A stretch of DNA of 58,581 nucleotides, filler included, from Squatina squatina (Eukaryota): assembly GCA_031763465.1 (NCBI GenBank). It is 4 parts of 4 records of this genome, joined end to end, with 100 filler letters (N's around TTAATTAATTAA, not from the genome) between each part and the next. Parts side by side here need not be neighbours in the genome. Positions count along the whole stretch, not along the records: positions 28,693 to 43,945 come from JARFOE010000073.1; 3 more parts are not named here. One strand, given 5' to 3'. Every line of letters starts with the position of its first letter. The first letter of the stretch is position 1. Under the pieces are notes generated by a model. That model was not told the DNA's origin and did no database searches. It saw only the letters and a program-made list of their open reading frames with translations. Shown one piece after another: positions 3,367-54,415 of the stretch. The translations under genes and the position numbers were made by a program.

Positions 3367-3547
3367 CAAAAAAAAACACAAAATGCCGGAAAAACTCAAC
3401 AGCTTAGGTGGGCACTAACGGTGGAGAGAGACAAACAGAGTTAACGTTTCAGGTCGACGAAGGATCATCGACCTGAAACGTTAACTCTGTTTCTCTCTCC
3501 ACAGATGCTGCCCACCTGGTCTGCTGAATCTTTCCAGCAGTTTCTGT
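3367..3547. mobile_element. Palindromic (hairpin) non-autonomous repeat, Penelope-terminus-like; same family as 43808-43945
   Basis: Perfect 25-bp inverted repeat 3433-3457 / 3468-3492, extending to about 35 bp (3421-3502) with a 2-nt bulge and looser outer arms. The arm sequence is nearly identical to 43892-43926. Confidence 0.8.
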
Positions 3548-4989
3548 AAGCATTTGGTATCGTTCTGTAGAACAAGATATGAGTGATGGGATCAAATATA
3601 TATGCAGTACTGCACAGGACAGAGACCCACAACAGATTGGCTAGACCACTAGATAATTATTTCATATTTTTAATTAAAACTTCCAACATTAGATTTTATT
3701 TGATTGATTCTCAGAACCTTAAACTTAAAGAGAGGAAGAGAGGATTACTGATGAACTCTCGAGTGCCAGAGAAGGGGTTTTGGAATAGACTAGGAAACAG
3801 AATTATTTCACAGTGAAAGCCTCTGAAGGGTTGGCTTCAACTCTGGTAATTTTGCTGCTGCTGTCATTCAAGGCAGGAACTGCCCTGGGAAAGATGGTCG
3901 CACAGTGGTGGGAAGGTGGATCTGCACAATGAACGTCTGCAAGAGTTCATTACTCTCCTGGGGAAAGTGCACGCCCTGGGGCTGAGCTCATTTAAACAAG
4001 CGATTAAGCATCCGTTTCCACAAAGTACTACCTTCCTGCAGCAGTGATAGAGAAGACAGAGTGCCCAAACTGCTACTACAGTCTGTCTGCTTCACAATCT
4101 GAGAAGATGGAAAAGCATTTAACAGTAAGTGAGGTGTAACTGAATTTTGTACTGTTAGTTAACACTTTCCAGCCTGATACTTGCTTGCCAAGACAAAGCT
4201 CCAGCAACCAGTTTGACACCCATTTCTTATTTTACTGTTTCCTAACCTTTTTCTATTTCATTTTTCTGTAAAATTGGAAAAAAATAATCTTATCCTTCAA
4301 TCACACCAATTACACATCTTCCACAATTGAAGGACCATTTGAGGAACTTCTATGTGATCTCTGCAAGTGCTGCCGAGTAGAAAATGCGTGAGCATAGCCT
4401 GGAGCAATTGTTCCCTTTTGCTCCCTGCGCTTGGCCTTTGCTTGCCGTGGTAGGATGNNNNNNNNNNNNNNNNNNNNNNNNNNNNNNNNNNNNNNNNNNN
4501 NNNNNNNNNNNNNNNNNNNNNNNNNNNNNNNNNNNNNNNNNNNNNNNNNNNNNNNNNGATTCAGCATGTAGCGATCAAAGAATTATTTTGCTTTGTTGGT
4601 TCCCTGCGCTCTCTGTATCTAAATAAAATGTTAATGTGGCTTCCTGGATCAGCTAGCAAGAGGTGAGTTATCTCCACTCAAGGTGAACAGGTTATCTGCC
4701 ACTTCCACTTCCGATGAAGGGTAAATATGTCCACAACGACATAGTTGGCAACTAACAGAATTCATTGCACACAAGGCGATTGAGTTTCACTGCACATAGC
4801 ACAGACCTTTAAAAAGGTTATCTCTGAGGCTTAGTTATCTAAGCTGTGAGAGCTAAATGATCTGAAGATTCTTACTGCAAGGACATATAAATAAATCGTC
4901 CCCATGCAGCATTTCCAAATTATATTTTTGCCAATGTCCATAATCTGTAGTGTAATATCTGGAAATAACGAGAGGTACATTGACTGTCA

Positions 4990-29120: not shown

Positions 29121-29252
<132 letters not shown>

Positions 29253-29256
29253 TTAC

Positions 29257-29356
29257 TTTCATCCGGGTTTGGTGCAGCGAGGATTGCACTGTGTTTCCGT
29301 TTAACCTCTTCCACGTTCTCAGAGATCTTGTCTATGAATCCTCGGATTTCTTCAAC
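29257..29356 (-). CDS. STX1A: Syntaxin-1A exon 3 (100 nt): [33 protein letters not shown]
   Basis: Minus-strand acceptor ttttcag and donor A|gtaaga. The peptide is near-identical to recalled STX1A ([33 protein letters not shown]) and less similar to STX1B or STX2. Confidence 0.93.
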
Positions 29357-31644
29357 CTGAAAATTACACGAAGCATTTAGAAACACATTCTCTTTACTAC
29401 TCACTTGAGACCGGAGCAGAAGAGAAAGCAGACTTAAATTTAGTACATTACCCATTACGCAATGCAATAAAACAAGGACATTAAAATAAAGCTTGCGGAC
29501 CCTGCCAACAACTATGCGGTGTCGTCAATTACTGAGTCTTAATGCCAAACATAGGATCCCAAAACATGAGACACGCTCATAAAACTTGAAGATGTCATTT
29601 CACCCAAGCAGCTCACTTTGCCTCTCCTCTATCAGAGCAGAGTCTATTTCTCATCTTTTCCAACCAATAACAATCCACTCTGGTTTTTTTGACTCCACCT
29701 CACTGGTGCCTTCATTATTTGAAAAATGTGGATCAAAGCTCTTCCTTTACTTTCCCATTTCCAACGAGATTTGAGTTACCCGCTCAAACTCGACTCAGTG
29801 TGATAATCCGAAACCTGGAGTCTCTGCTGTTGCTCTCAGAACCCTTTCCAACACTTTGCTAGATTTTCAGGTGTGTACTTTACACAGTAAATAATACTGC
29901 CTGTGTACTCTCAGTGATTCTAAGTGGAGTATCAGTAATGTTCCCATGGATTTATACATTTCACATCTGCTTAAACACTCAAAACTGCTTTTGCGGTTGT
30001 TGTCCTCACTGAAACTATGACTTCAACTGCGACGTTTTCTAGATTCTTTGAATGTAACTTTGAATTTTATATTTTCGATTTTAGTTCCAAAACCTTGTAA
30101 ATGTACCTTTCTTGATATTCAAGCACTCGTTCATCAGCCCAGTTGTTAAGTCTCTCTGAATGTAATCCTTGCCATCTCATGGGGAGAAAGCGGGAATATG
30201 GCGATGAGATANNNNNNNNNNNNNNNNNNNNNNNNNNNNNNNNNNNNNNNNNNNNNNNNNNNNNNNNNNNNNNNNNNNNNNNNNNNNNNNNNNNNNNNNN
30301 NNNNNNNNNNNACTTGCATTTGGCTAGTTTTTTGGGCTCTAACAACTCTTCATTAAAGAGATGCAAATAAAAAGAAAGCGTTTCAATCTTGCTGAAAGGA
30401 TGGGGAAAATTTGAATTCTTCACAACACTTGGACTCGAGGATATAAATCATGGACAGTTTTGCCTTGGATTTCACTTCAATTGAGACAAACCATCTCAAA
30501 TCAGCTCAGACCAACCAGAACATTTTGAGAATGCGGTAAGACAGAAAGTCAGAGAAAGACAACTGCCCCAGGCTTGATTTCCTAATCAGGTACACCCAAT
30601 TAATTGGAGTAAATCAGGTGGACTCAACTGGAAAATTCTGTAGAATTCCATCATGCCAGATCTCCATTCACTCTGCATTGCACACAACTCCTCTGTGAGA
30701 ATGGAATGCTGGTATTGAACACAGGTAGACAGGATTAAAACATTAATTTGGGGGTAGGGATGTTCTGGTGTGCTGGTCTCTTCCAAATGATTTCCCATGC
30801 CGGCATGGGCTGGTTGGGCTGAATGGCCTTGTTTCTGTGCTATATATTTTATGAAATGGTTGCTAGGAATTAACTGTGAGTAATTATTATTTTAATGGAC
30901 ACAGTAAATAAGTTGACTCTTCAGCTTTAAAATTATTTAACTGTTTTTCATTTTTTTTGCTCATTTTCCCTCTACTAACATTTAGGTTCTTTTTGAGCCT
31001 TTGCCGATTGATGCACGATTTTGCCTCCCATACCATTACTGCCACCGATGGGCTTCACAATGGAAATCACCAGAATTGAGATGTTTGAGGGAGGACGGAG
31101 GAGGAGCGGTAAAAGACTGCCAGGCGTAAAAGGTATTCTGTGCCAGGCTGCCATTACTGGTATTTCTGCACCTTCAGACCGAGGTAAATATCACTTTGGC
31201 AAATAAGTCGTTCATGTGGAGGGTCCTATGCCAAAGGAAGCTCGGCCAGTCGACACAAAGGCATCACTAGGAGATGTGGATGCCAGACTAACCCTCCTCA
31301 TGCAGCACCACCACCACTTCAACATTCAGCAAAGAGATAGTCGGGCGCTGGCTGCTTTATCATGTGCCTGCAGACTCACGCTTGCACCTTGGGTTTCCTT
31401 TCTCTTCATTTTTTTTCCCTGTTTCTTCTTAGTCCCCAACCCCTTCAGCCTGGTCAAAGGCTTCCAGTGAGAACCTTTCCTAAGGCTGGAAGAGTTTTTG
31501 TCTCCCTACTCTGACACTGATTTTTAATTAACTGTACCCCGTAAATTTCACCTGCCCACAGCACTCATGTATTCCCCTTCACATATACAAACGCAAAGCT
31601 AAACATAATTATGATATTGAACCAACTTTGGAAAATGTCTCTAT

Positions 31645-31876: not shown

Positions 31877-32275
31877 ATTGGCCTACGCAGGTACTCCTTG
31901 GACATGACCACTTCCTAAATTCTGTGCTTGTATCTCAAGCTCCTCCTCAAAGAAGAAAGGCAGCTCGGGGAATTCTACAGAAGTGGTATTGTAGCTGTAT
32001 GAAGATGCTGGTTTGATCCAGCTGCAACTCACTCCAATCTTTTGATTCCAATTGATCCAAAAGTTTATAAAGGGCTTCTCCAAAGGCAGCCCCTATCTGA
32101 TGATCTAACTGTACTGACATTTAACACTGTGGGTTCATAGTTCACGGTCATATTGCTATATCCTTGCTTCCTTTACAGCCTGCTTAGGATGTACCTTGAG
32201 CCCCGATGAAATCCCGCTGTTACAACAGCTGTTTCCAACTGTTCTTCCCTCTGCCTCCAGTCACAACCATCTCAC

Positions 32276-32353
32276 CTGCTCAAAGAACTCATCCATGAAG
32301 TGGTCCCTGTCCACGTTAACACTGACTTCGTCATCATCATCGCTGTCCTTTGC
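32276..32353 (-). CDS. STX1A: Syntaxin-1A exon 2 (78 nt): [26 protein letters not shown]
   Basis: Acceptor ttcacag and donor CAG|gtgag, phase 0, joining the exon at 29356 in frame. The 26-codon length fits STX1A (recalled STX1B has 25). Confidence 0.93.
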
Positions 32354-32379
32354 CTGTGAACGAATAAAGAATAATTGTT

Positions 32380-33020
32380 ACCATAAGACCATAAGAAGTA
32401 GGAGCAGGAGTAGGCTATTCGGCCCGTCGAGCCCGATCCGCCATTCAATTGGATCATGGCTGATCCGACATTTCTCAAGTCCACCTCCCCGCCTTCTCCC
32501 CATAACCCTTGATNNNNNNNNNNNNNNNNNNNNNNNNNNNNNNNNNNNNNNNNNNNNNNNNNNNNNNNNNNNNNNNNNNNNNNNNNNNNNNNNNNNNNNN
32601 NNNNNNNNNNNNNCATGCCCTCTGCCTCCATGCGTAGGTCTCCTTTTTGATCCCGAATCAGCCCCACCCCTCCTCTTACTACCTGTTTACTTTTATATGC
32701 CGATAGAAGACTTTTAAATTCTCCTTTATGTTGGTTGCCAATCTATTCTCGTACTCTTTTTTTTCCACTTCCCCTCAGAACTTTCTATAATCAGCCTGAT
32801 TCTCACTTGTATGATCAACTTGACATCTGTCATATGTGCTTTTTTTCTGCTTCATCTTATTCTCTATCTCTTTCGTCATCCAGGGAGCTCTGACTTTGGT
32901 TGCCACGTGGGAATGTACTTCGGCTGTACCCGAACCATCTCTTTAAAGGCCACCCATTGCTCCATTAGTTTTGCCAGCCAATCTTTGATTCCAATTTACC
33001 TGGGCCAGATCCATTTTCAA
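32380..33020 (-). mobile_element. CR1 LINE (3' tail at 32380-32513; ORF2 linker region at 32614-33020), interrupted by a gap
   Basis: Tail reads ...cctactcctgctcctacttcttatggtcttatgg on the minus strand. The ORF2 piece reads EYENRLATNIKENLKVFYRHI..GGVGLIRDQKGDLRMEAEGM. A close copy of the tail lies at 37798-37982. Confidence 0.8.
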
Positions 33021-33738: not shown

Positions 33739-34086
33739 TGTGGGGTAGAATAGGAAGTAGAGATCACAGTTCTCAATCAGTTGTGGGATTGGGTCAGCAG
33801 TAGAGATCACAGTCCTAGACCAGTTATGGCGTCAGATAGGAAGTAGAGATCACAGTCCTAGACCAGGTGTGGAGTTGGGTCAGCAGTAGAGATCACAGTC
33901 CTCGACCAGTTGTGGGGTTGGATTGGAAGTAGAGATCACAGTTCTAGACCAGTTGTGGGGTTGGGTAGGAAGTAGAGATCACAGTCCTAGACCAGTTGTG
34001 GGTTTGGGTCGGCAGTAGAGGTCACAGTCCTAGACCAGTTGTTGGATTGGGTAGGAAGTAGAGATCACAGTCCTGAACCAGTTGTG
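33739..34086 (+). repeat. 43-bp minisatellite, about 8 visible copies
   Basis: Unit gtagagatcacagtcctagaccagttgtggggttgggtaggaa starts at 33757, 33800, 33843, 33886, 33929, 33972, 34015 and 34058. The left end runs into a gap. Confidence 0.95.
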
Positions 34087-37167: not shown

Positions 37168-37797
37168 GTAAGAGCTGTGTATGGCAAAGACAGGAATGCA
37201 GATGTGTCTGACAGACAGCTCTGTGTCACATGGTTTACTGTAGGATTTGAACTGAGTGCGACTGACTGTCCCAGCTGCAGGGGACTGCGCAAAGCATATC
37301 TGAAGCAGACTTGCCAGGCAGTGGGGGAAAATTCAGCTGGAAGTGACTGCTTTCTTGTTCCTGGATCACCTGGGGGGAGACTGTTTGAGATCCACAATTA
37401 GGAAACATTGCAGAACTGTGGGAGTATTTTTTCATCCAAATTTTAAAAAATAAATTTGGAAGTGCAGTGGTTTCTTTACAAAATACTGTGACTGGCTGTT
37501 CAGAACTCTACTGATCCTTTAAAGCGAGTGTTGCAGAATAATTTCTGCCAGTTAGATTTTATTTTACAAGCGAACTAAAGAGTATTGAATAGTGTAACGT
37601 GTGTGCTGAATCACACTGCAGTGTGCCAGTGAAGGCAGGCCAACAGCTTTGGGTTAGCACAGAATGGACAGAAGCTCAAGATCTTCAATGTGTGGATGAC
37701 TGTCTTAGGCCATTCTGTGGTTTTGTGTATGCTTTTGCTTTTGTTATTTTCACTGGAGCTTCCCTAGCTTATTCAGTATTTGCTAAAATTTAATCAC

Positions 37798-37982
37798 AAG
37801 ACCATAAGAAGTAAGAGCAGGAGTAGGCCATTCGGCTCGTCGAGCCCACTCCACCATTCAATTGGATCATGGCTGATCCGGCATTTCTCCAGTCCACCTC
37901 CCCGTCTTCTCCCCATAACCCTTGATTCTCTTACTGATTAGAAATCTATCTATCTCGGACTTAAATATGCACAAGGTCTCAG
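37798..37982 (-). mobile_element. CR1 LINE 3' end
   Basis: Minus strand encodes IFKSEIDRFLISKRIKGYGEK (CR1 ORF2 C-terminus) followed by the 3' tail. Highly similar to 32385-32513. Confidence 0.85.
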
Positions 37983-38479: not shown

Positions 38480-38587
38480 AATGGTACCAGTTATGGATCA
38501 CTGGTGAGACGCAACACAGAGCTGCTGAAAGCTGTCAAAGAGTTGGAGCGCACATGCATAACACTTAGAGAGGAGAACACTTTACTG
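38480..38587 (+). CDS. RIM-binding protein family (TSPOAP1/RIMBP1 or long RIMBP2) coiled-coil exon: NGTSYGSLVRRNTELLKAVKELERTCITLREENTLL
   Basis: tttttgcag acceptor, CTG|gtaagg donor, 108 nt. Resembles recalled TSPOAP1 ELLRALGELRQRCAILKEENQML. Confidence 0.8.
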
Positions 38588-38721
38588 GTAAGGGCAAAGT
38601 GTCCATTTTACACAGGAGACTNNNNNNNNNNNNNNNNNNNNNNNNNNNNNNNNNNNNNNNNNNNNNNNNNNNNNNNNNNNNNNNNNNNNNNNNNNNNNNN
38701 NNNNNNNNNNNNNNNNNNNNN

Positions 38722-40322: not shown

Positions 40323-41885
40323 ACCTTTGTGCAATGTTTGTCAGAGTTCTGCAGCACCTCAGTGCTGCAATACACTGACCGAAGGACTGTCAAAAAAAAA
40401 GTTGGCCATGGTCCCTTTTAAGGAAACCGGCTAATGGCACGTCACCAGATAACATCATCAGACCGGCTTCCTGTTAATTGGCTCGAAACCTCGCTGGGCG
40501 GGCTTAACAAGCCCATTCATCTTAGAATTGTTTTGAGAGGGTGGGATGGAACTGGGAGCGCGTTCCCCACATGTCACCAATGTCTCGCCACTGTTGGCGA
40601 AATTGCAGCCGGTGTCTCTGGAGGTGGGAGAAGACCTTCCCGACAATCATTCATTCACCTCAGGTGCAGAGGAGCTCCAGTCACTCACTCACCGCGGCTA
40701 GATAGGTGCTCCAGTGATTCACTCACTCAACTCACTCACCAACACATTTCTATGTCGATACTCCAAGCCCTTGCTGTCTGTCATTATCTCACATTCCTCA
40801 ACTATAAAATCATGGAACGTTCCAGTGCGCAATCAGGTTACTTGACTCATCAAGTATGCGCCAGTGTTTTTCTCTGCATAAACCACCTAGTTGAAGCCTT
40901 AACTGTTTTTATCTTTGTAGATATTTAAAGCCATCTCTTTATGTGAGGCGCACAGAACATTCACAGTTACTGTTTTTTTTTCCTCTACCAGAAAGTCTGT
41001 TTATTCACTCCCAATAGTTTTATCTTTTCCTTTCTTCCCAAAAAAGGAAAAAAACCTTAATTTTTAAAATAAATTTCTGTATTTTCTAAAACAAAAAGTG
41101 AATGTTCTAAGTGCTGAGAGTAAATGTTTGTATCTCGTTGTTGAGATGAAAGCACAGGTGCATAGAGGGCTTCAGCTTTTTTGAACTTTATGGGAGTGGG
41201 AGACGAAAGATACCCAATTGAAGACCATGTTAAGATGCAGGGAAAACACATTGCATCAGTCATTGGCCATTGTGGATGAGAGAAGTTTTAAGGCCTCTAT
41301 GTGCATGAGTGAAATGTTTCCACATAGTGATTATCTATCTAGTTTACAGAGAGTGTGTTGTGATGAGACTGGTCAATGCACAGACTGACTTATCTTTCAA
41401 TTATTTGACAGCTCACAGTTGGAACATCATCAGTGCATCCAGGGTTATCCCTGCAAACAACAACAGAATTCTTCAGGACCTCAGAGGCAAGTGGATCTGT
41501 TGTACAAAGTCAGGTCACAGGCTCAGATCAGGACAGCAAGCAGGTTAGGCAGTTGGTGAGTTCAGTCAGGNNNNNNNNNNNNNNNNNNNNNNNNNNNNNN
41601 NNNNNNNNNNNNNNNNNNNNNNNNNNNNNNNNNNNNNNNNNNNNNNNNNNNNNNNNNNNNNNNNNNNNNNCTGTCTCTTATTCTTCTATTGTACGAGGCC
41701 TGTGCACTCTGATTTCAGCAAATTTTGATTGGAAGAGAATGGGTAGTAAAGGGTTAATGCCATCTGCTGGAACATGTGGAGCCACTGAGAGTCAGTGGAT
41801 GGAATCAGACTGAAATGTTGAAGCACAGCCTGAAATGGTATTCTCTCTCCTGCCCTGGTTAGAATGCGTCTGCTTTTATTTACAG

Positions 41886-41975
41886 GAGAATGAGCTGAAA
41901 CATGTCTGGATTGAGAATGCACGGCTAACTGAAGAGACCGTTCGACTCAGCCAAGAGGCACAGGAGACTGAAAAG
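41886..41975 (+). CDS. RIMBP-family coiled-coil exon (90 nt): ENELKHVWIENARLTEETVRLSQEAQETEK
   Basis: ttttatttacag acceptor, AAG|gtaata donor, phase 0/0. Resembles recalled TSPOAP1 ELQLRQAQNENARLVEENSRLSGRATEKEQ. Confidence 0.85.
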
Positions 41976-42652
41976 GTAATACTTGGCTTCATCTCTCGTC
42001 AGTGCACTGAGACTGCCTTTCCACAGCCATATCCCAGTGGGGAAGGCATGCGTTTATAACTTTTAACTAAGACAGTGGGCGCCCAATTCGTCCTTTTCTT
42101 TTGGCGCTGAACTCGCATTAAATGGGTGTTAAGGGCTTAACGCCGATTTTGGGCGTTAAATTTAGTGCTGCGAAATTCGTCCACCCTTAATNNNNNNNNN
42201 NNNNNNNNNNNNNNNNNNNNNNNNNNNNNNNNNNNNNNNNNNNNNNNNNNNNNNNNNNNNNNNNNNNNNNNNNNNNNNNNNNNNNNNNNNNCTGCACGCT
42301 GCTCCCCTCGCCCCCTTCTGCACCCTCCTCCCCTCGCCCCCTTCTGCACCGTGCTCCCCATGCCCCATTCTGTACCCTACTCCCCTCACCTCTTTACTGT
42401 GTTTCCTTGTCCCCATACTGTACTGTGTTCCCTCCCACTGTTTCAGCTGAAGTGCTTCTCTTGCATTTACATGACTGAGCACGTGAACCAATTTATTTTG
42501 TTTTGTGGTTTTAAAATTGTTTTTTTTTCATTTTCTCTCTCTCAGTTATCTCCCTTCCTATTGTTGGGAATGAGCCATTTGGATGCTATTTCCCAGGCCG
42601 CTGTCCTCCACCAGCCCCTTTCGCATGCTCTTGCTCGACATTCACATACATA

Positions 42653-42942: not shown

Positions 42943-43453
42943 TTGGACTTTGCTGCAAGAGACACGAGATAGTGATTGGAAATAGGAACTCTGGCTGATT
43001 TTCCCCAACTTCCCCAACGAGGCTAACAAGCATCCCCATTACCACCCTACTGAGATAACGGAGCACAGACTACATGGCTCCATGGAGGCATCATGAGAAC
43101 TCCTTACATTTTTGTTGTATTTATTCAGCTAATCCCTGTGCAGCTACCAAAGCGATAGTGTGGAAGGGAGGGGAGGAATAGGTGGGTGACATCACTTCAT
43201 TTATTTCCCAAGGGCCTGGAATTTAGGCATAAAACTCTGTTCCCATACTTATACCTCCAACTGCTCCAGGTCTCAAGCCTGTCACTGTGCTGCGTTGAGA
43301 AGACATCTGCATCATTTACAAAACAAGCAGAGGATTCATTTAAATTTGCCGACAAATTCAGTATCCTTTTATACAGTAATGAAGTGTAACAATTGGTTAT
43401 TGCGTTCCTCTTGGTCCTTTCGAATTGTGCTGAAGTGCCTGTGTTTGCTGCAG

Positions 43454-43576
43454 GTTAAAGCTCACAACAATGACCTGAGAGGGAGAATCTCAGTGGTGAC
43501 AGCAGAACGAGATTCAGCTCTGAAGGAGAATCAGCGACTCCAAGCCAAGCTGGAGAACCTAGAGCAGGTCCTGAAG
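43454..43576 (+). CDS. RIMBP-family coiled-coil exon (123 nt): VKAHNNDLRGRISVVTAERDSALKENQRLQAKLENLEQVLK
   Basis: ctgcag acceptor and AAG|gtaaga donor, in frame with the previous exon. Resembles recalled TSPOAP1 VEWENAELRGQLLGVTQERDSALRKSQGLQSKLESLEQVLK, which precedes HMRE... Confidence 0.88.
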
Positions 43577-43807: not shown

Positions 43808-43945
43808 GAGCAGAAGCGAAATACTGCGGATGCTGGAATCTAAAATACAAACAAAAAAAGTTGGAAAGACTCAGCAGGTCAGGCAGCATCTGTGGAGAGA
43901 AAAACAGAGTCAACGTTTCAGGTCGATGACCCTTCGTCAGAACTG
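43808..43945. mobile_element. Left arm of the palindromic Penelope-terminus-like repeat (truncated at scaffold end)
   Basis: aaatactgcggatgctgg...tcagcaggtcaggcagcatctgtggagagaaaaacagagtcaacgtttcaggtcgatgacccttcgtcagaactg. Related copies at 3367-3547 and 53328-53357 (reverse). Confidence 0.75.
43908..43944 (-). ncRNA. Minimal type-I hammerhead ribozyme motif
   Basis: Minus strand: AGUU-CUGACGA-AGGGUC-AUC-GACCU-GAAAC-GUU^-GACU. Both core boxes, helix II and a 4-bp helix I are present. Helix III is reduced to the palindrome AACGUU. Confidence 0.65.
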
Positions 43946-44045: not shown

Positions 44046-46821
44046 CCAGTATTGCATAGGACAGACAATAAGAAACAGAGAGATTGTTCCAGTATTTCAT
44101 GGTACAGTCTATCAGGAACAGAGACAGTGTTCTAGTATTGCACAGCACAGACTATCAGGAAAAGAGATCGTGTTCCAGTATTTCACTGAACAGTCTATCA
44201 GGAACAGAGACAGTGTTCCAATATTCCATATCACAGTCTATAAGGAACAGCTACAGTGTTCTCGTATTGCACAGCACAGACTATCAGGAAAAGAGACAAT
44301 GTTCCAGTATTTCACAGTACGGTCTATCAGGAACAGAGACAGTGTTCCAATATTCCACATCACAGTCTATAATGAACAGAGACAGTGTTCCAGTATTTCA
44401 CAGATCAGTCTATCGGGAACAGAAGCAGCATTCCATTATTTAACAGTACAGACTATCAGGAACAGAGACAGTGTTCCAGTATTTAATAGCACAGACAATC
44501 AGGAACAGAAACAATGCTCGTGTATTGCACAGTGAAGAGTATCAGGAGCAGAGCGAGTGTTCCAGTATTTCACAGTGCAGTCAATCAAGAACAGAGCCAG
44601 TGATCCAGTATTTTACAGAACATTCTATCAGGAACAGAGATAGTGTTCCAGTATTTCACAGTACGGTCTAGCAGGAATAGAGGCAGTGTTCCAATATCTC
44701 ACATCACAGTCTATCAGGAACAGAGACAGTGTTCCAGTCTTTCACAGTAGAGTCAATCAGGAACATAGTCAGAGTCCCAGTATTTCACAGCACAGAGTAA
44801 AAGGATCAGAGCAAATGTTCCATTATTTCACGTCACAGTCTATCTGCAACAGAAACAGTGCTCCAGTATTTCACAGTACAGTCTATCAGGAACTGAGACA
44901 GTGTTCTAGTATTGCACAGCCCAGACTATCAGGAAAAGAGACCGTGTTCCAGTATTTCACAGAACAGTCTCTCAGGTACAGAGATAGTGTTCAAATATTC
45001 CACATCACAGTCTATCAGGAACAGAGACAGTGACCCAGTATTGCACAGCACAAACAATCAGCAACAGAGACAGTGTTCCAGTATTTCACAGTACAGTCTA
45101 TCAGGAATATAGTGAGTGTTCCAGTATTTCAGAGCACGGAATATCAGGAACAGAGACTGTGTTCCAGTATTGCATAGGACAGACAATAAGAAACAGAGAG
45201 ATTGTTCCAGTATTTCATGGTACAGTCTATCAGGAACAGAGACAGTGTTCTAGTATTGCACAGCACAGACTATCAGGAAAAGAGATCGTGTTCCAGTATT
45301 TCACTGAACAGTCTATCAGGAACAGAGACAGTGTTCCAATATTCCATATCACAGTCTATAAGGAACAGCTACAGTGTTCTCGTATTGCACAGCACAGACT
45401 ATCAGGAAAAGAGACAGTGTTCCAGTATTTCACAGAACAGTCTCTCAGGTACAGTGATAGTGTTCCAATATTCCACATCACAGTCTATAAGGAACAGAGA
45501 CAGTGTTCCAGTATTTCACAGCTTAGTCTATCAGGAAAAGAGGCAGTGTTCCATTAGTTAACAGTACAGACTATCAGGAACAGAGACAGTGTTCCAATAT
45601 TTCATAGCACAGACTATCAGGAACAGAGACAGTTTTCTAGTTATTCACAGTACAGTCTATCCGGTATTTCACATCATGGAAAATCATGTTCAGAGACAGT
45701 GTTCCAGTATTTCACATCACAGTCTATCTGGAACAGAGAGAGTGTTCCAATATTCCACATCACAGTTTATAAGGAACAGAGACAGTGTTCTAGTATTTCA
45801 AATTACAGACTATCAGGAACAGAGACAGTGTTCCAGTATTGCACAGCACAGACGATCAGGAAAAGAGACAGTGTTCCAGTATTTCACAGAACAGTCTCTC
45901 AGGTACAGAGATAGTGTTACAATATTCCACATCACAGTCTATAAGGAACAGAGACAGTGTTCCAGTATTTCACAGATTAGTCTATCAGGAAAAGAGGCAG
46001 TGTTCCATTCTTTAACAGTACAGACTATCAGGAACAGAGACAGTGTTCCAATATTTCATAGCACAGACTATCAAGAACAGAGACAGATTTCTAGTATTTC
46101 ACAGTACAGTCTATCAGGAACAGAGACAGTGTTCCAATATTCCACATCTCAGTCTATAAGGAACAGAGAGAGTGTTCCAGTATTTCACAGATCAGTCTAT
46201 CGGCAAAGTGTTCCAATATTTCACAACAGAGAATTTCAGGATCTGAGACAGTGTTCCAGTATTGCACAGCACAGACTTTCAGGAAGAGAGGCAGTGTTCC
46301 ATTATTTAACAGTACAGACAATCAGGAACAGAGACAGTGTTCCAATATTTCACAACAGAGAATTTCAGGATCTGAGACAGTGTTCCAGTATTGCACAGCA
46401 CAGACTATCAGGAACAGAGGCAGTGTTCCATTATTTAACAGTACAGACAATCAGGAACCGAGACAGTGTTCCAGTATTTCATAGTACATTCTATCAGGAA
46501 CAGAGACAGTGTTCCAGTATTTAACAGCACAGACAATCAGGAACAGAAAAAATGCTCGTGTATTGCACAGTGCAGTCAATCAAGAACAGAGCCAGTCATC
46601 CAGTATTTCACAGAAAATTCAATCAAGAACAGAGACAGTGTTCCAGTATTTCACAGTACAGTCTAGCAGGAATAGAGACAGTGTTGCAATATCTCACAGC
46701 ACAGATGGTCAGGAACAGAGACCATGTTCCAGTATTTCACAGTAGAGTCAATCAGGAACATAGTCAGTGTTCCACTATTTCACAGCACAGAGTAAAAGGA
46801 TCAGAACAAATGTTCCAGTAT
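44046..46821 (+). repeat. 43-bp tandem satellite, about 64 monomers
   Basis: Consensus ccagtatttcacagtacagtctatcaggaacagagacagtgtt. Equivalent positions recur at multiples of 43 (44084, 44170, 44471, 44686, 45202). Confidence 0.97.
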
Positions 46822-52495: not shown

Positions 52496-54415
52496 TCTGA
52501 GCAGCCATCAGAAAGAGGAGTGCTGGCAAAGGCGTGGGAACGGGTTTCTAGCCCACCCACTCAGCCAGAGAATGATGTTCGGAGGGGATTCCTCAAGGGA
52601 AAAGAGCAAAAGGGAATTAAAAAATGATCAATGAGGAAAATGGAACACAAATGAAATAAATATAGGGCCCATTGTTTTGCGAGAAATTTTACACTTTGAA
52701 TATTAATTCTTCCAGACACACGAAATTTTTCGTTCTGTGAATGCACAGCCCAAGACTGTTGTCACAAATCATTGCTAGCTCTGCAGCGTATCAACATGTT
52801 TTAAATCACATGCCTGCCAGTTTACTGCACTGTAAGATTATGCACAGGATGGACCAAATGACTGAAGAATAATAGGTGCGTACNNNNNNNNNNCCGAGCG
52901 GTATATCAGAAATTCAAACTTCTGAAGCTTATAGGAACCAATAACTTTTTATTAAACAAGAACACAGCATAAACCAGCAAATAATATGGAAAATAATACA
53001 AGATGCGATACCAATGAGTCACTTTGTGTCTTTTATGTGCTTTATTTTGCCAGACAAGAATGGAAAGATGTTTTGGTTTAAAACCACAGACAAGACAGCA
53101 AAAGTGATATCCTATGAAATGTTTAACACACAGCCTCCAGGTAGGATATGAATGGAAAAGTGATGCTGGTTATTGGTGTAGCAGATCAATGAATGTGAAA
53201 ACAAAATAACGTTCAAATTGGTGGGCTNNNNNNNNNNNNNNNNNNNNNNNNNNNNNNNNNNNNNNNNNNNNNNNNNNNNNNNNNNNNNNNNNNNNNNNNN
53301 NNNNNNNNNNNNNNNNNNNNNNNNNNNCAGCATCTGCAGTATTTTGCTTTTGTATTAGTCTGATTCTTTCGCCCGATTCTCCTGGCAAAATCATTCCATG
53401 ATTACAGAATGCTGTAAGTCACTGGACGGGAGATTTTGACACTGGTTGTCTTAACCACAATGAGCCGATCTGTCCACAGACTGCAGAATGGGATCTGTAA
53501 CACAGGCTATGGTGTCTGATGGATGATGAGAGTGCTTGAGGCTGAATAAAGAGATCGTAGCAGCTAAAGTATTCCCCAAAAGGCTATGTTAATAAATGAT
53601 TTCCCAAAATGATGCAACGCAATTTTTAAAAAGCTGCATAATAAAATATAATTTAGAAAACTTTTCAAAAGAATTTAACATTTTGTTAGTTATCCAGAGG
53701 CTATGGAAGCAAACCCATCTAATGATGCAGATTGAAGGAGTTATGAACTATGACTCATGCTGTCTGCAGTTCCTTTCACGATAAATTCCTTAGACTCCCA
53801 GGGGAAGAGTAACAGATCCAGTAAAGTTCACAGAAAGGAGAGCAATTACTGAAGCAAAACCTTTTTAAGCAACGCAATTTATGTGCATTCAGGTAGACGC
53901 ACATTAAGTCTATGGCTTCATTGCCTGGTTGTCCCCACTTTTGTTATCACATTTGTCGAACTATATATTCTGAATCAAACAAACCTCTTAATAATAGATG
54001 TATTTGAGCTTAATCTCCAGAAACTTTATATTTTGTTAGCTCAAATACACCTAAATATTGCTTCAAAAAGGAGATCAGGCATTGAAGGCTGGACATAGTA
54101 TATTTGTATAGAATTGCTGAGAAGTGGATCTATGGCACCACATATGGGTTTCTCCTTTTTCTTTAACAACTTGGTTTAGATCTGCATTTTACAGTCTAGC
54201 AGTGCCGTCGCTGCCAACTTTCAGACAGGAACATGGACCAGCTGGACGTGTACACTCCTGTTATTCTACATGTCAAGCACCAAGCCTCCACGGACTGACC
54301 AGCGTAAGGGCATATNNNNNNNNNNNNNNNNNNNNNNNNNNNNNNNNNNNNNNNNNNNNNNNNNNNNNNNNNNNNNNNNNNNNNNNNNNNNNNNNNNNNN
54401 NNNNNNNNNNNNNNN

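What the first reader, a model, noticed from the sequence alone, without database searches (positions are those of the whole stretch)
43908..43944. Intact minimal hammerhead ribozyme core at the end of a dispersed palindromic repeat
Seen: the minus strand reads AGUU CUGACGA AGGGUC-AUC-GACCU GAAAC GUU^ GACU. That is both invariant hammerhead boxes, a 5-bp helix II, a 4-bp helix I (AGUU/GACU; AACU in the 3.4-kb copy, which turns the U-G wobble into U-A) and an NUH site with predicted cleavage between 43912 and 43911. Helix III has no loop, only the palindrome AACGUU. Known: Penelope-like retroelements carry minimal type-I hammerheads with palindromic helix III that are thought to work as dimers. 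Inference: a high-copy, non-autonomous Penelope-derived family in this genome spreads ribozyme motifs into introns (here of a RIMBP gene, antisense to it), and some copies could still self-cleave.
Basis: partly seen in the sequence, partly recalled or inferred. Interest (0 to 1): 0.7.

Follow-up and report, generated by a model that had tools for sequence, protein, structure and literature searches.

The report
Shark Penelope retroelement hammerhead stub
This is a true sequence match to the small self-cutting "hammerhead" RNA already known from Penelope-like jumping genes, one of thousands of broken element ends in a shark genome and likely inert; the one fresh clue is that many copies begin right at the motif's first letters, which likely marks where the element's RNA starts.

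Summary
The motif is real (minus strand 43944-43908): both core boxes, bulged A, 5-bp helix II, 4-bp helix I, loopless ACGU helix III, GUU site. The core pattern occurs 7005 times in the genome against 46 for the reversed control. It is not the end of a non-autonomous palindromic repeat: it is the pseudo-LTR hammerhead of a Penelope-like element (PLE) with reverse transcriptase, linker Zn finger and GIY-YIG nuclease (Neptune type), found both behind and in front of the ORF. The window copy is a 135-nt visible 3' end with tail, antisense in an intron of a shark RIMS-binding-protein gene; its 5' part is unreadable (N). Copies decay neutrally (11 of 49 fully intact), so an intact copy is no sign of function; the active dimer fold is disfavoured in silico. 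Known kind (Cervera 2014; Frangieh 2024), and this scan reported it in other shark genomes before. Extra: 17 of 37 and 24 of 51 readable 5' junctions sit at the hammerhead's 5' edge, on an initiator-like motif about 31 nt behind a TATA-like box; only 1 of 64 starts at the cut site. Templates were likely uncleaved RNAs starting at helix I.

The parts
43908..43944 (-). minimal type-I hammerhead motif (helix I 43944-43941/43911-43908; core 43940-43934 and 43919-43912; bulged A 43933; helix II 43932-43920; loopless ACGU helix III 43916-43913; predicted cut 43912|43911). Closing pair 10.1-11.1 is G-U here; 7 of the 9 nearest relatives have C (G-C), so the U is likely CpG decay
43811..43945 (-). visible 3' end of a Penelope-like element: pseudo-LTR piece from offset -5 to +129 relative to C3; 5' part unreadable (N)
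43811..43845 (-). optional 30-40 nt 'tail'; copies end either at about +92 to +112 (19 of 30) or +121 to +141 (7 of 30)
   Evidence: tail concept from 10.1101/2021.04.23.441226 and PMC11167929
43940..43945 (-). initiator-like (Y)CAGUUC with A at 43944 = first base of helix I; family 5' junctions pile up here; predicted transcription start (inferred)
3368..3555 (.). second copy of the family in the window: fold-back (inverted) insertion whose centre has removed C3-U4 and the 5' strand of helix I; not a complete hammerhead
43451..43576 (+). host exon of a RIMS-binding-protein gene (RIMBP2-like/TSPOAP1 names), 234 nt upstream of the insertion; further exons at 38480-38605, 41415-41492, 41868-41978 and beyond the stretch end

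Best explanation
The motif is the minimal hammerhead of the pseudo-LTR of a protein-coding Penelope-like retroelement of Neptune type, left in a shark intron as a 5'-truncated insertion that is likely inert. Shown: the same hammerhead stands about 280 nt behind the RT + Zn-finger + GIY-YIG ORF and again in the pseudo-LTR in front of the ORF start; copies are 5'-truncated, have two alternative 3' ends 30-40 nt apart and sometimes an inverted 5' arm. Inferred mechanism: a TATA/initiator-like promoter in the pseudo-LTR starts the RNA at about the first base of helix I; the element's protein nicks DNA and primes reverse transcription internally at +95 or +130 (as shown in vitro for the anole PLE); the enzyme runs to the RNA 5' end and is there joined to the target (short stubs), folds back (palindromes) or jumps on (long copies and partial tandems). 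The hammerhead would cut only as a dimer through the ACGU palindrome and probably only with protein help; it was mostly uncut in the RNAs that gave these copies. The window copy is intact by chance of youth, and the host pre-mRNA carries its reverse complement, which is not a ribozyme.
For: L066 runs RT motifs, linker, GIY-YIG, 3' UTR, hammerhead and 3' end on one strand; L058 the same from the nuclease on. L110 holds a near-full broken ORF; its relatives (47-26% identity, 27 hits) carry RT, many also GIY-YIG. Of 29 loci picked by the ORF start, 6 carry a direct pseudo-LTR with the hammerhead in front of it (L178, L183, L189, L199, L201, L202). C-X4-C-X2-C linker and CC-HH nuclease motifs are visible across broken copies. 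Pair 10.1-11.1 is G-C 21, G-U 20, A-U 15, A-C 0 of 60; genome-wide A10.1 goes with C11.1 in only 80 of 1175; loop II varies more than the stems. Neutral decay: of 49 copies chosen without regard to the hammerhead, 21 keep the core and 11 core plus both helices, with CpG positions hit most. 5' junctions: 17 of 37 at -5..+2 against 8 at +3..+28 (p 3e-6), replicated by 24 of 51 at -6..0 against 12 at -60..-7 (p 8e-15); 1 of 64 informative copies starts at the cut site and a targeted search shows no spike there. Double-hammerhead fold -9.3 kcal/mol against -8.9 per monomer and -22.5 for the best dimer. Papers: PMC4209133, PMC11167929.
Against: No cleavage assay and no raw RNA reads were available, so promoter, start site and inertness are inferred. 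No intact ORF was seen among the loci examined, and no single contig shows pLTR-ORF-pLTR complete. Covariation rests on few lineage events and G-U may be CpG decay of G-C. The TATA/initiator match is shared by descent and the TATA pattern was chosen after seeing the sequence; most junctions lie at -3/-2, not at the A at -4; Drosophila Penelope has a TATA-less internal promoter (PMC2377424 abstract). 33 of 70 copies in the first junction set were unreadable because of N, which favours short copies. Folding energies ignore the hammerhead's tertiary core.
Confidence: 0.85

Rival explanations
1. The short copies are a separate non-autonomous family (SINE- or retrozyme-like) with their own short masters of about -3 to +95/+130, mobilised by the PLE protein; the window copy is one of them.
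For: About half of the readable copies are 100-135 nt stubs that begin at the hammerhead's 5' edge; a stub would lack the upstream TATA-like box but a solo pseudo-LTR would keep it. Tandem retrozymes derived from PLE pseudo-LTRs are reported in vertebrates (10.64898/2026.07.22.740005).
Against: Start points scatter over -6..+2 and occur in every sequence variant (G-C, G-U and A-U forms), which a few fixed masters would not give; the same variants run on into the ORF; no tandem array of this unit was seen in the loci fetched.
Confidence: 0.1
2. The 5' junction peak is not a transcription start but the footprint of the folded or protein-bound hammerhead: the RNA is trimmed back to the base of helix I, or reverse transcription and second-strand joining break off there. 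(Rival for the inferred step only; the identity as PLE hammerhead is unchanged.)
For: The peak coincides with the 5' strand of helix I as exactly as with the initiator-like motif, and its mode is -3/-2. PLE protein promotes hammerhead folding in vitro (PMC11167929).
Against: A TATA-like AT box begins 31-33 nt before the A at -4 in 32 of 40 long copies, with the same spacing in both main subfamilies; TATA plus initiator in a pseudo-LTR has a precedent (PMC3846280); a stalling enzyme would be expected to stop on the 3' side of a hairpin.
Confidence: 0.35
3. The window copy is a host-adopted, active intronic ribozyme that affects the RIMS-binding-protein transcript.
For: Core and helices are intact and it lies 234 nt from an exon.
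Against: It is on the non-transcribed strand of the host gene; 11 of 49 unselected copies are as intact; it differs from its nine nearest relatives at four majority positions, one of them weakening pair 10.1-11.1; it lacks helix III and loop-loop contacts; helix I probability in its own 135-nt context is about 0.06.
Confidence: 0.03
4. The peak at -3/-2 comes from splicing at the pyrimidine-rich CAG just before the hammerhead, as the Drosophila Penelope intron ends at helix I.
For: The flank looks like a 3' splice site; precedent in PMC4209133.
Against: Flanks upstream of such copies share no common exon and mostly do not end in G; no GT..AG joint appeared in the contigs laid; U-rich flanks are part of the published consensus.
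Confidence: 0.05

Closest known systems
Minimal hammerheads (min-HHR) in pLTRs of metazoan Penelope-like elements (Cervera and De la Pena 2014, PMC4209133)
   Same: CUGANGA + bulged H, G10.1-C11.1 in the master form, short helix I, no loop 3, palindromic 15.2-16.2, U-rich 5' flank, thousands of solo copies from truncated PLEs. The C-G-U-U site stands in 12 of the 44 alignment rows I read in supplement 2, part 2.
   Different: Host is a shark; no shark row in the part read and no hit for shark, Callorhinchus or Leucoraja in supplement file 2 (file 1 could not be searched). Helix II is short (5 bp, 3-nt loop).
Neptune/Nematis clades of EN+ PLEs (Craig et al., 10.1101/2021.04.23.441226)
   Same: Single ORF with DKG-type motif, RT, CX2-5CxxC linker, C-terminal GIY-YIG with CCHH; pLTR in direct or inverted form; 30-40 bp tail; strong 5' truncation.
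   Different: Neptune versus Nematis was not resolved by a tree; Neptune is preferred because only Neptune and Poseidon were reported from vertebrates.
Poseidon element of Anolis (PAc; Frangieh et al. 2024, PMC11167929)
   Same: Two internal priming sites that define the tail; hammerhead near the ORF start; uncleaved RNA as the main template; no RNA ends found at the cut site.
   Different: PAc is of the Poseidon clade and its ORF starts inside stem II; here the start codon lies about 170-190 nt behind the core. The sections I read report no pile-up of 5' junctions at the hammerhead edge.
Non-LTR retrozymes (10.64898/2026.07.22.740005)
   Same: Type-I hammerhead of PLE origin, no ORF in the short copies; reported from the one chondrichthyan sampled.
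   Different: Retrozymes are defined as tandem arrays; these copies are dispersed, truncated ends of a coding element.

Membership tests
PLE minimal type-I hammerhead | core CUGANGA ... GAAA ... NUH | tested here: met
   59 of 60 copies have U17
PLE minimal type-I hammerhead | unpaired base between A9 and 10.1; G10.1-C11.1 closing pair | tested here: met
   bulge A in 55 of 60; G-C 21, G-U 20, A-U 15; window copy G-U, 7 of 9 nearest relatives G-C
PLE minimal type-I hammerhead | palindromic 15.2-16.2 with no or tiny loop 3 | tested here: met
   ACGU, no loop; dimer geometry is nested and can be drawn
PLE minimal type-I hammerhead | helices I and II kept by compensatory change | tested here: inconclusive
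   pair 10.1-11.1 shows G-C/G-U/A-U with A-C rare (0 of 60; 80 of 1175 genome-wide); pair 2.1-1.1 one-sided U-A/U-G; other pairs nearly invariant; few independent events
PLE minimal type-I hammerhead | lies in the pLTR on both sides of a PLE ORF | tested here: met
   behind the ORF in L066, L058; in front of it in 6 of 29 loci; both on one contig not seen
PLE minimal type-I hammerhead | site-specific self-cleavage as dimer or with protein | not testable with these tools
   no assay; no raw RNA reads
EN+ Penelope-like element | single ORF with PLE-type RT and C-terminal GIY-YIG (CCHH) | tested here: met
   all copies examined are broken; Pfam does not hit the broken shark frames themselves
EN+ Penelope-like element | optional 30-40 nt tail, 5' truncation, inverted 5' copies | tested here: met
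Neptune/Nematis clades | CX2-5CxxC Zn finger between RT and EN | tested here: met
   seen in L099, partly in L112, L188, L098 and in relatives P0001, P0002, P0006
Neptune clade | RT phylogeny with named references | not tested
   no named Neptune or Nematis reference sequence was returned by any search
Non-LTR retrozyme | tandem array of hammerhead-bearing units | tested here: not met
   no tandem array at the motif in the window; dispersed single copies; the unreadable 5' side of the window copy is not covered by this test
Rfam hammerhead families | covariance-model match | tested here: not met
   no hammerhead hit at E up to 5 in the window or up to 10 in three loci; expected for a form without helix III

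The most novel reading that the evidence does not exclude
In this shark Neptune-type element the Pol II start site is the first nucleotide of the hammerhead (TATA-like box at -31, initiator = helix I 5' strand), so the ribozyme is the 5'-terminal structure of the RNA and, repeated at the 3' pseudo-LTR, its terminal redundancy. The thousands of short copies are 'strong-stop' products: internal priming at +95/+130, run-off at the uncleaved 5' end, then joining, fold-back or template jump. The genome would thus record that the hammerhead acts as a terminal landing structure rather than as a 5' processing enzyme.
Probability: 0.4. Interest if true: 0.55.

Novelty: new member of a known kind. Interest (0 to 1): 0.3.

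Why it matters
The motif itself is a known kind and this copy is one of thousands. What could matter is the family statistics: the role of hammerheads in Penelope-like elements is stated as unclear in the papers read (10.1101/2021.04.23.441226; PMC11167929). Junction counts from a high-copy family give a cheap in vivo record: templates mostly began at the hammerhead's 5' edge and seldom at its cut site, which fits the in vitro result that uncleaved RNA is the template and makes a sharp prediction for CAGE and reporter tests.

Tried and rejected
Rfam scans found no hammerhead. Pairs of motifs about 3.0-3.4 kb apart (L101-L104) and 1.7 kb apart (L105) looked like two-pLTR elements but are independent stubs with no ORF between them. 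Spacer lengths other than 14 show no second large family (15-22: 200 against 385 control; 10-13: 255 against 154, mostly indel variants). No RNA holder listed with raw reads; the contigs laid cannot show ends, strand or level, and showed no GT..AG joint. A cleavage footprint was sought: 1 of 64 informative copies starts at +28; among 30 of 128 copies lacking GAAA before a perfect downstream 26-mer, apparent starts are flat over +25..+29 (6, 4, 7, 6, 7; at +29 three with unique flank, two inverted, two internal deletions); a rate of a percent or two is not excluded. The idea that copies cut at the GTT|AAC palindrome are secondary insertions could not be shown: no upstream resumption in 12 loci, most of them short. 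Pfam did not name two exon-like frames at 29231-29524 and 32272-32385. Papers not held: PMC306830 (NUX cleavage rates) and PMC5785218 (Lunse et al., PLE hammerheads cleave as dimers; seen only as a reference title and a summary in PMC6765202). Searches for a paper on this shark family found none; Repbase and Dfam could not be searched, and supplements of the bioRxiv retrozyme preprint and file 1 of PMC4209133 could not be seen and may list it.

Full report
Observation. With C3 at 43940 as offset 0: helix I 5' strand -4..-1, CUGACGA 0..6, bulged A +7, helix II +8..+20 with a 3-nt loop, GAAAC +21..+25, GUU +26..+28, predicted cut between 43912 and 43911, helix I 3' strand +29..+32. A full descriptor matches once in the window and never in 150 Markov-resampled windows. 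Rfam finds no hammerhead, as expected for a form without helix III.

Place and host. The stretch maps to one place in G000 and ends at 43945 because the genome reads N beyond it; the 5' end of this copy is therefore unknown. The neighbouring exon 43451-43576 is 98% identical over 41 aa to a RIMS-binding-protein-2-like protein named from Heptranchias perlo, with other sharks and rays at 85-90%; four exons map in order on the + strand and a further one beyond the stretch end. The host is thus inferred to be a shark, and the insertion is intronic and antisense. The host pre-mRNA carries the reverse complement, which is not a hammerhead.

Copy number. The exact 32-nt pattern has 848 matches and 0 for the reversed control; the core with a free 14-nt spacer has 7005 against 46; a downstream 26-mer has 9255 against 0. 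These are lower bounds for a decayed family.

What the repeat is. Walking upstream from long copies leads through about 280 nt of pyrimidine-rich 3' UTR into a GIY-YIG-like frame with the two-cysteine, two-histidine signature (L058) and on into RT motifs on the same strand as the hammerhead (L066). L110 holds a near-full, broken ORF; its 388-aa RT frame finds 27 proteins, best 47% identical, and the four I scanned carry RT and GIY-YIG matches. A C-X4-C-X2-C linker is visible in broken copies and relatives, the mark of Neptune and Nematis elements (10.1101/2021.04.23.441226, passages). Of 29 loci picked by the ORF start, 6 have a direct pseudo-LTR with the hammerhead in front of the start codon, and several more have its tail or an inverted piece. 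Of 30 copies picked by the exact core, 19 end at +92..+112 and 7 at +121..+141, 4 being shorter or cut by N: the optional PLE tail, which the window copy has (end at +129, 43811). Six of 37 readable copies have an inverted 5' arm; the window's copy at 3368-3555 is one such, with its core broken at the centre. The family is therefore the debris of a coding PLE, not a palindromic non-autonomous repeat. No intact ORF was seen in the loci examined.

Structure evidence. In 60 copies picked by the core alone (60 of the first 100 listed, leaving out those already held and the last part of the list), helix II pairs hold in 53-59 of 60 and helix I pairs in 47-54 of 60, dropping to 6 of 60 at the fifth position; pair 10.1-11.1 is G-C 21, G-U 20, A-U 15, A-C 0; pair 2.1-1.1 is U-A 29, U-G 24; position 17 is U in 59. 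Genome-wide, A10.1 goes with C11.1 in 80 of 1175. This is the pattern of a maintained helix, but it rests on few lineage events and on a CpG site. The published consensus and alignment (PMC4209133, main-text parts 1-2 of 4 and supplement 2 part 2) show the same architecture, with C-G-U-U in 12 of 44 rows read, so the GUU site is not unusual for this class; a review passage lists GUU among usable sites and GUC/GUA as the fastest (PMC3138052, passages).

Is the copy active? Of 49 copies picked without regard to the hammerhead and spanning it, 21 keep the core and 11 keep core and both helices; CpG positions are hit hardest and the core is not spared. An intact copy is thus common and shows youth, not selection. 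The window copy differs from the majority of nine near relatives at four places, one turning G10.1-C11.1 into G-U. In silico the monomer's best fold (-8.9 kcal/mol) pairs G5-G8 with the cleavage site; the double hammerhead scores -9.3 against -22.5 for the best dimer; in the 135-nt context helix II has probability 0.29 and helix I 0.06. Published min-HHRs are inactive as monomers and weak as dimers; the anole PLE hammerhead cuts only with the PLE protein, and cutting is not needed for insertion (PMC11167929, parts 1-2 of 4).

Junction statistics. Seventy copies were taken in list order using only the downstream 26-mer. Thirty-three have N at the 5' junction. Of the other 37, 10 extend to -120 or beyond (three of these are self-alignments capped at -220), 2 start at -12 and -9, 17 at -5..+2 and 8 at +3..+28. 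Against the shorter class, which should assemble at least as well, p = 3e-6 (interval chosen after seeing the data). A second set of 73 further copies picked by the core gives 24 of 51 readable junctions at -6..0 against 12 at -60..-7, p = 8e-15. In contigs of one other organism the best-supported heterogeneous loose ends include -5 and -2 (run X2; also -2 in X2 and X3); run X5 did not show this among its listed rows, so this is weak support. Only 1 of 64 informative copies starts at the cut site, and a targeted search shows no spike at +29. In 40 copies that reach -45, an AT box begins 31-33 nt before the A at -4 in 32, and the YYANWY motif at -6..-1 is present in 39; these are shared by descent, and the promoter consensus is from my own knowledge. 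A TATA plus initiator pair in a pseudo-LTR has a precedent in a rotifer PLE (PMC3846280, passages), whereas Drosophila Penelope is TATA-less (PMC2377424, abstract and one section).

Mechanism. Shown: anatomy, link to the ORF, two 3' ends, 5' peak, neutral decay. Inferred: RNA starts at helix I (about 0.45; the footprint rival about 0.35); priming at +95/+130 by analogy with the anole element; run-off at the uncleaved 5' end gives stubs, fold-backs or jumps; the hammerhead cuts, if at all, as a protein-assisted dimer.

Comparison and novelty. This is a new member of a known kind. Five literature searches found no paper on this shark family or on a junction peak at the hammerhead edge, but Repbase, Dfam and some supplements could not be seen. 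The scan's own notes list 574 findings with these words in at least 28 genomes, none in this genome or by sequence; one notes the same 5'-edge peak, which I had found before the look-up, and one a cut-site footprint, which I then tested without finding a spike. Interest 0.3.

Noticed in passing
window 44046-46821: 43-bp satellite, about 38 + 27 copies at 77-78% match; a different 43-bp array of 8 copies at 33739-34086.
   Followed up: no
window 53328-53352: 25-nt piece of the same PLE tail directly beside a 100-N gap; probably a third copy.
   Followed up: no
window 29231-29524 and 32272-32385, minus strand: Exon-like frames that I recall as syntaxin-1-like, head-to-head with the RIMBP gene; Pfam gave no hit, so the name is from memory only.
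   Followed up: partly
L338, L342, L344, L347, L351, L353, L354, L355, L358, L361: Family copies that begin at the palindrome around the predicted cut (+25..+29) abut the end of another, GC-rich repeat with a shared AT-box-plus-CAGCCC-like terminus; either that repeat targets the palindrome or the reverse. No upstream resumption found. Such cases can mimic a cleavage footprint.
   Followed up: partly
G000:C370199:1335-1362 and 1467-1494 (also C238064, C371013): A different CUGAGGA...GAAACGUA motif, twice 132 bp apart: possible tandem retrozyme-like family.
   Followed up: no
L152, L162, L166 and others: Variants with a 13-nt spacer, GGGU/ACCY stem and often GUC site: possibly an older PLE family.
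   Followed up: no
window 43811-43911 minus strand; L178, L202: Two strong 3'-splice-site-like stretches behind the hammerhead (one at about +50, one just before the ORF start codon) and a short upstream ATG frame between them; PLEs are known to hold 5' UTR introns, but no splice joint was seen.
   Followed up: partly
L103:4360-4450: Head-to-head fold-back with two nearly complete hammerheads meeting at offset -5.
   Followed up: no
window 32382-32513 and 37795-37926: Two copies (92% identical) of another dispersed repeat, both ending at N gaps or near them.
   Followed up: no
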